Origin: Escherichia coli
Lineage (GTDB): Bacteria > Pseudomonadota > Gammaproteobacteria > Enterobacterales > Enterobacteriaceae
Strand: one strand, 5' to 3'
NCBI RefSeq assembly: GCF_045037415.1
Contig: NZ_CP173440.1
Length of the DNA stretch: 64,000 bases
Of this stretch, positions 36,001-39,000 are shown one piece after another; the stretch's first letter is position 1; every line of letters begins with the position of its first letter. Position numbers: made by a program.

Positions 36001-39000
36001 CGCGGATGCCGGGAACCTTTCTGGTGAAAAAATATCGTGAAACAGCGTCTGCTATCGAAACCTTAACCATGCATTGCAGGAAGAAAAGATTCCAGAGGAT
36101 TAATTTTGCTTTTAATGACTAACTTGATAAAAGGACATATATATTGATGGAAATTTCAACACAAAAACTGTCTGACGGCATCGTTCTGACGCTTCGCTCT
36201 CCCTCCGACAGTACAAAAAGCCCGGTGATCATTTTGTGCCATGGCTTCTGTGGTATCAGAGAAATTCTGCTACCTGATTTTGCTGAAGCATTTACCCGCG
36301 CCGGATTTTCCACCATCACGTTTGATTATCGTGGTTTCGGGGACAGTGACGGCGAACGCGGCCGCTTGGTTCCTGCTATGCAAATTGACGATATTATCTC
36401 TGTTGTTAACTGGGCAAGAGAACAGCCCTCCCTTGATGCGCAGCGTATTGGCCTGTGGGGAACATCATTTGGGGGATGCCACGTATTTGGTGCGGCGGTC
36501 AGAGACCCGGGAATCAAATGTATTGTCAGCCAGCTGGCTTTTGCAGACGGTGAAGAGATAGTCACCGGGAATATGAATAATGAAGAGAAAGAAGCTTTTC
36601 TTTCAACCCTGGACAAGATGGCTGAAAAGCAGAAGAACACAGGTAAAGAAATGTTCGTGGGTGTCAACCGGGTACTGAGCGATGCAGAATCAAAATCATT
36701 TTTCGAAGAAAACAGAACGCAGTACCCAAAGATGGACATTAAAATACCGTTTCTTACGGTGCGCGAAACTCTTCTGTACAAACCCGCATTGAATGCCTCA
36801 CAGGTGATGTGCCCGACCCTGATCGTTATTGCTGGTCAGGATACGGTTAATCCACCGGAGCAGGGACGGGCCTTATTTGACGCGGTGGGGGCCAAAGAAA
36901 AAAGGCTATATGAGGAAAGCAGTGCCCGCCATTACGACATTTATGCAGGAGAGCACTTTAAGCAGGTTATCAGCATTCAGACAGAATGGTTTAAAACGCA
37001 CCTGTAATTTTAGATAACGACTTACGGTGGGTTCAACAGAGCCCGCCGTTATGATAGACGTCAAATGTCGCATTTTGTAGCTTCGCTTCCGCTGGGCCCC
37101 ATAGGATCTGCCGGATCGTAGAGGCTGGCTCCCAGCGCCAGCTTCACGCCTCTGGACTGTAGTGCATCCGCTATCTCTCGTGCGTCAGGAACTGACCGCG
37201 CCAGCCGGTCAAGCTTGGGAACAGAACAACCAGCGTATCACCGCTGCGCACAGCGGCCAGCGCCTGATCAAGTCCGGGCCGTTGCCGGTTTGAGCCGGTC
37301 AGCCCTTTATCGAGGTAAATCCGGTCCGAAGATCTGGCATGCCTGTATTTGTCATTTTATTCAGCGCACGCACCATGGCCAAAGCCTCTGCAGCCTGACC
37401 ATCGTAATCACGCTACGCCAGCGAACCATCGAACAACTGCTTTACCCTGTACATCGGCGTTTCAGCTATCGACTGACGGTTGTAATCTGTTGTCCATTTC
37501 CACCGTGCATTGCTCCCGCTCAGTCGCTGATTCGCAACAGCACGATTGCGCTCTGCATACTCACCAGGCAAGAATCCCGCTCCCTTTCGGGGAGGAATGA
37601 GCGCGCTGATTTTCTTGCGAGGCAGTTCGTCATGACATCGCTGCGTATCGTAAGCGCCGTCCGCAGCAACTGACCTGATTTTTCGGTGGGTCTGCCGGAT
37701 AAGCCCCGGGGATGCTTCAGCATCCGTGACGTTGTTCAGTGACAGGTCCGCGCAGATGATTTCATGCCTACTCGCGTCAACAGTCAGATGCAGTTTCCGC
37801 CAGATACGACTGCGATCTTTGCCGTGCTTTTTGACTTTCCACTCACCTTCACCGAAGACTTTAAGCCCTGTGGAATCAATCACCAGATGCGAAATTTCAC
37901 CCCGGGTGGGCGTTTTGAAACTGACGTTAACCGACTTTGCCCGCTTGCTGACACTGGTGTAATCCGGACAGCGCAGCGGGACATCCATCAGGGCGAAAAT
38001 GGAATCAATAAAGCCCTGAGCGGCTCGCAGGGTCAGCCGGAATACGCGTTTAATCACCAGGATGGTTGTGATGGCAAGATCTGAATAGCGCTGAGGTCGT
38101 CCCCGCGATGCAGGCGTTGCTGACTCATACCAGGCCTGAATCGCCTCATCATCAAGCCAGAAAGTGATGGAGCCACGATTAATCAGGGCCTTGTTGTAGT
38201 TGCGCCAGTTGGTGATTTTGAACTTTTGCTTTGCCACGGAACTGCCAGTATAGTCAGGATAATGCGTGATCTGATCCTTCAACTCACCAAAATTTCGATT
38301 TATTCAACAAAGCCGTCTATTACTGGAAATCAATCATGGCGTGCCTGCACTACATCTGAATGTGTCGGGTGGGGATACGCTTCTCCACGTACATGCTGCA
38401 CAAGGTGGACTTGTCCTGACACCAGACAGTTCCGGGGTACTGTTTCAGCGTGCTGGATGCGACAGGTATGCTTACAGAGATCAGAACTCATTACTTGTGA
38501 AGGAACAGTAATATACTGCCCTCCATCAATCCAGAGTCTGGGGTTGTCGCATCAGATCTGACAGAACAAACAATCACGAAAAAGTTACTTTTTTCTCAGG
38601 AGGTGCCTGGACCCCTGCCCTTCATTTTGACGCGAGCAGGATGTCAGCACCTTACGTGCGGTTACTGTTATTCGCGTCCTGGTGGTATAGTGCAGCGGCT
38701 GGCAGAAGTAACCTACTATCCAACGGAATAAGATCACGATGAACGTCATTCAGCCCCGCATGCTCTCTGTATTTGATTTTGACGGTACGTTAACGCGGCA
38801 TGATAGCTTTATCCCTTTTCTGCGGTTTGCCTTTGGCAATCGGGCGTTTTCGCGACGTATCGTCAGCATGGCTCTACCCACGTTACGCTGTATGCGTAAG
38901 CAGATGACGCGTGATGAGCTTAAAGAAACGCTCATTACAACTTTTCTTACTGGTGTTGAGGAAAAGTGGGTGTCTTCTAAAGCAGAGGAATTCTGTCAGC

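What the first reader, a model, noticed from the sequence alone, without database searches (positions are those of the whole stretch)
37060..38314. IS903-like element with an in-frame amber codon, fused at its truncated end to a resolvase remnant
The left IR (GGCTTTGTTGAATAAATCG) is intact. The transposase frame is interrupted by a single TAG at 37413-37415 and then continues in frame for about 36 codons. The element's right end is missing; the sequence beyond encodes the N-terminal catalytic region of a serine recombinase (...RPGLDQALAAVRSGDTLVV / KLDRLARS...), itself frameshifted. The locus looks like a decayed recombination hotspot.
Basis: partly seen in the sequence, partly recalled or inferred. 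Interest (0 to 1): 0.3.

Follow-up and report, generated by a model that had tools for sequence, protein, structure and literature searches.

The report
Dead IS903-type element joined to resolvase fragment
This is an ordinary scar of old mobile-element traffic in the Klebsiella pneumoniae virulence plasmid (pK2044/pLVPK type): a broken IS903-type insertion sequence joined to an internal piece of a resolvase gene, which is cut off by the end of a third transposon.

Summary
Everything lies on the minus strand.

- **IS remnant (38314→37333).** It is the first 982 bp of a ~1057-bp IS903-group element. It has a perfect 18-bp IRL, a GTG start at 38237 and a TAG at codon 275 (37415→37413). The last 75 bp, including IRR, are missing.
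- **Its lineage.** It is 85% identical to IS903B in DNA and 88% in protein, with dN/dS 0.10. So it is the fossil of a once-functional, distinct lineage.
- **Resolvase fragment (37332→37101).** It covers codons 31-106 of a 192-aa Tn3-family resolvase and is 94% identical to the gene on Serratia plasmid pET_W2. A 5-bp tandem duplication shifts the frame. The catalytic serine and the HTH domain are absent.
37060-37100 is not resolvase. It is the terminal inverted repeat of a third element, a Tn3-family transposon at 32240-37100.
- **History.** An empty target site exists in related plasmids. The missing parts are nowhere in pK2044, which points to deletions rather than inversions.
- **Prior knowledge.** The identical junction is in at least 571 plasmid records, and RefSeq already annotates both pseudogenes.

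Verdict: real, non-functional, already known, low interest.

The parts
38315..38323 (+). 9-bp flank (GTCTATTAC) next to the IRL. It is the presumed target sequence of the original IS insertion.
   Evidence: Homology to the uninterrupted site in pKp_Goe_832-1 (...TTGCTTAG|GTGTATTACTGG...) starts exactly at 38315. The 9-mer is unique in the window.
38297..38314 (-). Intact 18-bp terminal inverted repeat (IRL) of an IS903-group element.
   Evidence: Exact match and the only copy in the window. It is identical to the IS903B IRL in pIMP26 and to the IRL printed in PMC10569121.
37333..38314 (-). 3'-truncated IS903-group insertion sequence: positions 1-982 of about 1057. The IRR and the last 6 codons are missing.
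   Evidence: 85.0% identity to IS903B over 982 bp, and the alignment stops at 37333. Pfam DDE_Tnp_1_5 E = 4e-38 and DDE_Tnp_1 E = 2e-26.
37413..38237 (-). Transposase pseudogene ORF, 274 codons, from GTG to the premature TAG at 37415->37413 (codon 275). By position, D121, D193 and E259 are retained.
   Evidence: RefSeq PGAP labels it 'IS5 family transposase, internal stop'.
37333..37412 (-). Transposase codons 276-301 downstream of the amber, still in frame and homologous to IS903B.
37101..37332 (-). Internal fragment (codons 31-106 of 192) of a Tn3-family resolvase gene (tnpR). It has no catalytic Ser, no HTH domain and no res site.
   Evidence: Pfam PF00239 profile positions 33-110 of 145, E = 8e-16. 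93.9% nucleotide identity to the pET_W2 'invertase' gene, nt 95-320. PGAP labels it 'recombinase family protein, frameshifted; incomplete'.
37219..37228 (-). 5-bp tandem duplication (TGTTC TGTTC) that frameshifts the resolvase fragment.
   Evidence: There is a 5-nt gap against the intact pET_W2 gene.
37060..37100 (-). Right terminal inverted repeat of a separate Tn3-family transposon ('TnX').
   Evidence: 45-nt inverted repeat, 82% complementary, with 32236-32280. The outer end reads GGGGCCC. tnpR homology ends at 37098-37100.
32240..37100 (+). TnX, a Tn3-family transposon. It carries tnpA (32345-35305), a frameshifted tnpR (35424-36040) and an alpha/beta hydrolase annotated as a UilS-family AHL lactonase (36144-37007). 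There is no 5-bp target duplication.
   Evidence: Its left end truncates a cupin gene (PGAP note).
13431..17480 (-). Right-hand part, including the terminal IR, of the transposon ('TnY') from which the resolvase fragment derives. It has the same orientation as the fragment and lies 19.6 kb away.
   Evidence: 96.9% identity to pET_W2 locus L003 7571-11635. The 37-nt IR at 13433-13469 also matches L003 3683-3719.

Best explanation
The locus is an inert composite scar in the backbone of pK2044/pLVPK-type K. pneumoniae virulence plasmids. It lies between the ter/HAD genes and a Tn3-family transposon.

Shown:
- An IS903-group element sits at GT(C/G)TATTAC upstream of the HAD gene. Related IncHI1B/FIB plasmids have this site empty.
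- The element has lost its last 75 bp, including IRR, and the backbone that originally flanked that end.
- IS position 982 is joined directly to codon 31 of the resolvase gene of a pET_W2-like Tn3-family transposon (TnY).
- That resolvase fragment ends at codon 106, against the terminal IR of another Tn3-family transposon (TnX).
- Two small lesions are present: an amber at transposase codon 275 and a 5-bp tandem duplication in tnpR.

Inferred:
- The IS|tnpR junction arose by an illegitimate deletion, not by transposition or site-specific recombination. It is at neither an IS end nor a res site.
- TnX transposed into tnpR, and later rearrangements separated the rest of TnY.
- The order of these events is unknown.

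Functional consequence (inferred from established knowledge of these families):
- With one IR and a truncated transposase, the IS cannot transpose.
- Without Ser, HTH and res, the resolvase fragment cannot recombine.
- At most, the remnant is a passive patch of homology to other IS903-group copies.
For: - Anatomy and junction coordinates.
- Profile support: with the intact parent proteins.
- Intact parent tnpR and its transposon in Serratia pET_W2.
- Empty target site, with homology starting exactly at 38315.
- Loss rather than inversion. The IS tail, TnY tnpA/res/5' tnpR, TnY nt 7231-7570 and a second TnX copy were not found in the window or in the pK2044 sequence fetched outside it.
- dN/dS of 0.098 against IS903B over 300 codons. 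The divergence therefore accrued while the gene was functional, and decay is limited to one stop.
- The identical 1.6-kb stretch is in at least 571 plasmid records, including pK2044 and (IS part) pLVPK, and in 21 E. coli transconjugant or host records. It is therefore not an assembly error.
- RefSeq PGAP independently calls 'internal stop' and 'frameshifted; incomplete'.
Against: - No intermediate was found with an intact IS plus its 9-bp duplication, or with intact TnY at this site. The mechanism and order of the deletions are therefore inferred, not observed.
- The 274-aa product keeps the positions of the DDE triad, so a residual trans effect on other IS903-group copies is not formally excluded.
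- The whole-plasmid check joined the window to pK2044 pieces, and the seam identity check failed. The window may come from a near-identical sister plasmid rather than pK2044 itself.
Confidence: 0.9

Rival explanations
1. The IS is still active. The amber is read through or suppressed, or the 274-aa protein suffices, and the element moves by one-ended transposition or uses a cryptic right end.
For: The frame stays open and homologous for 26-27 codons after the TAG, and the DDE positions lie upstream of the stop. Copies with an IRR that contain stretches identical to this remnant exist in pK195_rmpA2 and pK230_rmpA2.
Against: - No IRR-like sequence exists anywhere in the window within 3 mismatches.
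- The last 6 codons and the 75-bp end are replaced by unrelated tnpR sequence.
- This lineage is single-copy in pK2044. The other three IS903-group copies are only about 84.5% identical to it.
- The IRR-bearing copies are hybrids. Their ends come from other IS903 lineages, and they still carry the amber. That pattern fits homologous recombination or assembly chimerism, not transposition.
Confidence: 0.03
2. The junctions were made by the elements' own enzymes. Either the IS903-type transposase caused an adjacent deletion, or resolvase recombined at a res site (a true site-specific hotspot).
For: By general knowledge, IS903 is known to cause adjacent deletions, and Tn3-family resolvases act at res sites. 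Three mobile elements abut within 1.3 kb.
Against: - Transposase-mediated adjacent deletions start exactly at an intact IS end. Here the IS end itself is deleted, at position 982 of 1057.
- The break in tnpR is inside the coding sequence at codon 31. In the intact pET_W2 relative the tnpA-tnpR intergenic region, where res would lie, is upstream.
- Only the 37101/37100 junction coincides with a transposon terminus, the TnX IR. Even that lacks a 5-bp duplication.
Confidence: 0.05
3. The remnant matters as a recombination substrate. It is a 982-bp homology patch that exchanges sequence with active IS903-group copies. This would spread the amber by gene conversion or provide crossover points for rearrangement and fusion of virulence and resistance plasmids.
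For: - A Logan contig (SRR12395651) with the same architecture has an IS903B-like patch at IS positions ~110-370. Divergence changes within the IS, at 14-32 differences per kb on the ter/HAD side against 0-1 per kb on the TnX side.
- pK195_rmpA2 carries this same insertion, with the same 9-bp flank, but its 3' end from about position 960 is replaced by another lineage including an IRR.
- pK230_rmpA2 and pK195_KPC hold hybrids with stretches 100% identical to the remnant.
- Published work describes plasmid fusion involving IS903B copies in pLVPK-like plasmids, though not this remnant (PMC9160755).
Against: - All the hybrids come from one submitter series (MK3472xx, MK3122xx) or from a short-read assembly. 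Repeat-induced assembly or polishing chimeras would look the same.
- At 85% identity, RecA substrates are limited to short perfectly matching stretches.
- At least 570 records keep the remnant unchanged.
Confidence: 0.25

Closest known systems
IS903B (IS5 family, IS903 group; 1057 bp, 18-bp IRs, 9-bp target duplication, 307-aa DDE transposase)
   Same: The 18-bp IRL is identical. The gene layout, the GTG start and the Pfam domains PF13737 and PF01609 are the same. It is collinear over positions 1-982, and the DDE positions are conserved.
   Different: - Only 85.0% nucleotide and 88% amino-acid identity. By the text of PMC10569121, the named variants IS903, IS903B and IS102 differ from each other by about 34-61 nt.
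- Amber at codon 275.
- Last 75 bp and IRR missing, and no demonstrable target duplication.
- No intact 307-aa homologue above about 88% identity in the 5.8-billion-protein search.
Resolvase ('invertase', BEO88488.1) of a Tn3-family transposon on Serratia marcescens plasmid pET_W2 (AP028600.1)
   Same: 94% nucleotide and about 95% amino-acid identity over codons 31-106. The passenger genes and terminal IR of the same transposon are also in the window, at 13431-17480, with 96.9% identity.
   Different: The window holds only 76 of 192 codons. Missing are the catalytic Ser region (residues 1-30), the C-terminal third including HTH_7, the presumed res region (the tnpA-tnpR intergenic region) and tnpA. 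A 5-bp duplication is present.
Existing RefSeq annotation of the same sequence, for example pKP2648-VirV NZ_CP083992.1 LCH23_RS23170 and LCH23_RS23175, and pK2044 NC_006625.1
   Same: 100% identical sequence. The pseudogenes are already flagged 'IS5 family transposase, internal stop' and 'recombinase family protein, frameshifted; incomplete'.
   Different: The automatic annotation does not mark the IRL, the IS truncation point, the TnX inverted repeats, the parent transposon of the resolvase fragment or the empty site. Those were worked out here.

Membership tests
IS5 family, IS903 group insertion sequence | DDE transposase with the PF13737 and PF01609 domains, about 307 aa | tested here: met
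   E = 4.4e-38 and 1.7e-26. The frame is collinear with IS903B. This shows homology only, because the ORF is interrupted at codon 275 and cut after codon 301.
IS5 family, IS903 group insertion sequence | Two 18-bp terminal inverted repeats (GGCTTTGTTGAATAAATC) | tested here: not met
   Only the IRL is present, at 38297-38314. No other match within 3 mismatches in 64 kb. The alignment to IS903B stops at position 982 of 1057.
IS5 family, IS903 group insertion sequence | 9-bp direct target duplication | tested here: not met
   GTCTATTAC next to the IRL is unique in the window. The other end of the IS is deleted. The empty site in pKp_Goe_832-1 confirms the IRL-side boundary only.
IS903B itself (same named IS) | Near-identity to the reference. 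My recollection of ISfinder practice is about 95% or more in nucleotides. | tested here: not met
   85.0% nucleotide and 264/301 amino-acid identity. It is a distinct lineage within the group.
Serine recombinase (Tn3-family resolvase) | Resolvase N-terminal catalytic domain PF00239 | tested here: met
   58.9 bits against a cut-off of 23.3, but only profile positions 33-110 of 145 are covered.
Serine recombinase (Tn3-family resolvase) | Catalytic serine near residue 10 | tested here: not met
   The fragment starts at codon 31 of the intact relative, so the whole N-terminal 30 residues (MTEIRIGYARCSTDKQ...) are absent. I place the nucleophile at Ser12 in that stretch by its position in the motif. 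This was not tested here.
Serine recombinase (Tn3-family resolvase) | C-terminal HTH DNA-binding domain and an intact frame | tested here: not met
   HTH_7 is at residues 144-186 of the intact protein. The fragment ends at codon 106, at the TnX IR, and carries a 5-bp duplication.
   45-nt inverted repeat, 82% complementary, at 32236-32280 and 37060-37104. tnpA carries PF13700 and PF01526, and PGAP labels it 'Tn3 family transposase'.
   The flanks are ACTTT (32235-32239) and ATAGG (37101-37105). The left flank is a truncated cupin gene and the right flank is the tnpR fragment.

The most novel reading that the evidence does not exclude
The dead IS903-type remnant may not be wholly inert. It could serve as a homology patch that exchanges sequence with active IS903-group copies. 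That would copy its amber into them by gene conversion and provide crossover points for rearrangements of virulence plasmids in carbapenem-resistant hypervirulent K. pneumoniae. The mosaic copies in pK195/pK230 plasmids and in one Logan contig suggest this.
Probability: 0.2. Interest if true: 0.3.

Novelty: already known. Interest (0 to 1): 0.08.

Why it matters
It matters little beyond annotation.

- The junction is a stable, lineage-specific marker of pK2044/pLVPK-type virulence plasmids. It could be used as a PCR or k-mer signature.
- Its anatomy records part of how the region between the aerobactin and tellurite loci was assembled. The steps include an IS insertion into an IncHI1B/FIB backbone, deletions, and nested Tn3-family transposons.
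- If the mosaic IS copies in some CR-hvKP plasmids are real, the remnant is one of the homology patches through which these plasmids rearrange. Recombination involving IS903B copies in such plasmids is already described in general terms (PMC9160755).

Tried and rejected
- **Intact copy of the same IS lineage.** The protein search found only the 274-aa pseudogene products above 88% identity. A chimeric DNA query (remnant 3' end plus IS903B tail) found only hybrid copies that keep the amber.
- **Ancestral state.** A synthetic query (backbone left flank, 9-mer, IRR, then IS) found no record covering 80% or more in PLSDB.
- **Target-site duplication.** The 9-mer is unique in the window.
- **Inversion as the cause of the junction.** The IS tail and the rest of TnY were not found in the window or in the pK2044 sequence fetched outside it. 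The joined reconstruction failed its seam check, but the hits and absences rest on genuine pK2044 segments plus the window.
- **TnX target duplication.** Absent.
- **Literature.** Searches for IS903 with pLVPK returned papers on other, intact IS903B/IS903D copies (fusion plasmids, Tn6501, mgrB insertions). None described this remnant.
- **pK195_KPC 657-bp identical stretch as a possible ancestor.** Rejected, because it is a patchwork of IS903B and remnant pieces.
- **Structure prediction, RNA-family searches and collection scans.** Not run, because the sequence-level answer was unambiguous.

Full report
**Where the window comes from.** The 1.6 kb around the finding (36900-38500) is 100% identical to K. 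pneumoniae NTUH-K2044 plasmid pK2044 (NC_006625.1, reverse complement). At least 571 plasmid records, mostly Klebsiella, carry it at 99% identity or more. pLVPK (NC_005249.1) is 100% identical over the IS part. It also occurs in 21 E. coli records that carry such plasmids. In plus-strand order the neighbourhood is:
- the aerobactin genes;
- passenger genes shared with a Serratia transposon;
- vapBC and other genes;
- a cupin gene;
- a Tn3-family transposon;
- the finding;
- a HAD hydrolase gene;
- terF to terA.

**Checking the observation.** The element is on the minus strand.
- The 18-bp IR GGCTTTGTTGAATAAATC is at 38314->38297. It is the only match in the window within three mismatches (0.05 expected).
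- The transposase frame starts at GTG 38237. IS903B uses the same GTG. It runs 274 codons to TAG at 37415->37413.
- IS903B has CTG (Leu) at that codon.
- The frame stays open for 37 more codons. Homology to IS903B ends at 37333, which is IS position 982 of 1057. Only 26-27 post-amber codons are therefore IS-derived, and the last 75 bp with the IRR are gone.
- Pfam gives DDE_Tnp_1_5 (E = 4e-38) and DDE_Tnp_1 (E = 2e-26).

**What kind of IS903 this is.**
- Identity to IS903B is 85.0% in DNA and 264/301 in protein.
- dN/dS is 0.098 (dN 0.062, dS 0.63). The divergence therefore built up under purifying selection, and this is the fossil of a distinct, once-functional IS903-group member.
- A search of 5.8 billion proteins found nothing full-length above about 88% identity. 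Only the 274-aa pseudogene products scored higher.
- pK2044 has three other full-length IS903-group copies from two other lineages. All are about 84.5% identical to the remnant.
- By position, D121, D193 and E259 are retained upstream of the amber. The residue numbering is from my memory of the IS903 literature.

**The resolvase fragment.**
- From 37332 to 37101 the minus strand matches Pfam Resolvase PF00239, but only profile positions 33-110 of 145.
- tblastn against plasmids found an intact relative, the 192-aa 'invertase' of Serratia marcescens plasmid pET_W2. Identity is 94.7% over all 76 residues in one piece.
- The DNA alignment shows 93.9% identity to gene positions 95-320 (codons 32-107). 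The protein alignment extends one codon further, giving codons 31-106 within 37332->37101. There is one 5-nt gap.
- The extra bases are a tandem duplication, TGTTC TGTTC, at 37228->37219.
- The fragment lacks the N-terminal 30 residues, which include the serine of the GYARCSTDKQ motif.
- It also lacks everything after residue 106, including HTH_7 at residues 144-186.
- It is therefore an internal piece of the catalytic domain, not its N-terminus.

**The parent transposon of the resolvase fragment (TnY).**
- In pET_W2 the gene sits divergently next to a 956-aa Tn3-family transposase (PF01526, E = 5e-106). Both lie inside a transposon of about 8 kb bounded by 37-nt IRs.
- The right-hand 4 kb of that transposon, including its IR, is also in the window at 17480->13431. 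It is 96.9% identical, has the same orientation as the fragment and lies 19.6 kb away.
- The transposase, the tnpA-tnpR intergenic region (where res would lie), the 5' end of tnpR and 340 bp at its 3' end were not found in the window or in the pK2044 sequence fetched outside it.

- The first 41 nt of the interval (37060-37100) are not resolvase.
- They form a 45-nt, 82%-complementary inverted repeat with 32236-32280.
- This repeat brackets a Tn3-family transposon (TnX, 32240-37100). TnX carries tnpA, its own frameshifted tnpR, and an alpha/beta hydrolase that PGAP names a UilS-family AHL lactonase.
- tnpR homology ends exactly at the GGGG end of this IR.
- TnX has no 5-bp duplication (ACTTT against ATAGG). 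Its other end truncates a cupin gene. TnX has therefore also been through a rearrangement.

**Target site and history.**
- Related IncHI1B/FIB plasmids such as pKp_Goe_832-1 have an uninterrupted site...TTGCTTAG|GTGTATTACTGG.... Homology to the window starts exactly at 38315. This confirms the IRL boundary and the 9-bp target GT(C/G)TATTAC.
- The backbone that lies left of that site in pKp_Goe_832-1 is absent from the window. Only part of it is present in pK2044, about 150 kb away.
- The 9-mer is unique in the window.
- No plasmid record has the hypothetical ancestral arrangement.
- The IS|tnpR junction (37333|37332) has at most one ambiguous base. It lies inside both elements, at neither an IS end nor a res site.
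- The simplest reading is an illegitimate deletion. The mechanism and the order of events are inferred, not shown.

**Function.**
- With one IR and a transposase that is both nonsense-mutated and truncated, the IS cannot transpose.
- Without Ser, HTH and res, the resolvase fragment cannot recombine.
- RefSeq PGAP already flags both as pseudogenes ('internal stop'; 'frameshifted; incomplete').

**A possible residual role.**
- A Logan contig with the same architecture carries an IS903B-like patch at IS positions ~110-370. Divergence changes within the IS.
- pK195_rmpA2 has this same insertion, with the same 9-bp flank. Its 3' end from about position 960 is replaced by another IS903 lineage, including an IRR, and it still carries the amber.
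- pK230_rmpA2 and pK195_KPC hold further hybrids.
- These could reflect homologous recombination or gene conversion with the remnant. They could equally be repeat-induced assembly or polishing artefacts. I could not distinguish the two without raw reads.

**Comparison and verdict.**
- The closest known entities are IS903B (same architecture, 85% identity), the pET_W2 Tn3-family resolvase (94%), and the existing RefSeq pseudogene annotations of this very sequence.
- Papers on IS903B/IS903D in pLVPK-like plasmids concern other, intact copies (PMC9160755, PMC6395898, PMC10569121).
- The finding is real and correctly read in its essentials. It is an ordinary, already-annotated mobile-element scar of low interest.

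Noticed in passing
window 32240-37100: Tn3-family transposon 'TnX' with 45-nt IRs. It carries tnpA, a frameshifted tnpR and a hydrolase that PGAP names a UilS-family quorum-quenching AHL lactonase. It has no 5-bp target duplication (ACTTT against ATAGG), its left end truncates a cupin gene, and it is single-copy in pK2044. The pattern could reflect an unresolved cointegrate or a later deletion.
   Followed up: partly
window 13431-17480: Right-hand 4 kb, including the terminal IR at about 13434-13469, of a second Tn3-family transposon. 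It is 96.9% identical to one on Serratia marcescens plasmid pET_W2 (AP028600.1) and lies next to iutA. It carries DUF1471, DM13, DUF417, TetR and YdgH-like passenger genes. Its tnpA and res are absent from pK2044.
   Followed up: partly
L012 (pK195_rmpA2) 1819-2874 and 3956-5011; L011 (pK230_rmpA2) 1820-2875; L005 (pK195_KPC) 3001-4057: Full-length IS903-group copies that are mosaics. Long stretches are 100% identical to the window's remnant, amber included, and are joined to ends from IS903B or a third lineage. These could be real gene conversion or recombination, or assembly and polishing chimeras.
   Followed up: partly
L008 (Logan SRR12395651 contig 721), IS positions ~110-370: The architecture matches the window, but the remnant carries an IS903B-like patch. 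Sequence on the ter/HAD side is 14-32 differences per kb from the window, and the TnX side is nearly identical. This suggests a recombination breakpoint inside the IS.
   Followed up: partly
L010 (Citrobacter sp. CRE-46 plasmid NZ_CP029729.1) 275-1276, equivalent to window ~38464: An independent IS903B insertion lies 149 bp from the window's insertion site, in the same orientation, upstream of the same HAD/ter genes. This intergenic region seems to be a repeated IS903 target.
   Followed up: no
pK2044 record 5211-6266, 76548-77602 and 143642-144698 (outside the window): Three full-length IS903-group elements from two lineages: two about 88% and one about 94% identical to IS903B. All are about 84.5% identical to the remnant. 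One plasmid therefore holds three diverged IS903 lineages.
   Followed up: partly
window 18984-19355 and 62823-63644: An IS3-family orfA-like remnant lies at 18984-19355. A stretch at 62823-63644 is identical to the IS26 region of pK195_KPC. Both are further mobile-element debris in the window.
   Followed up: no
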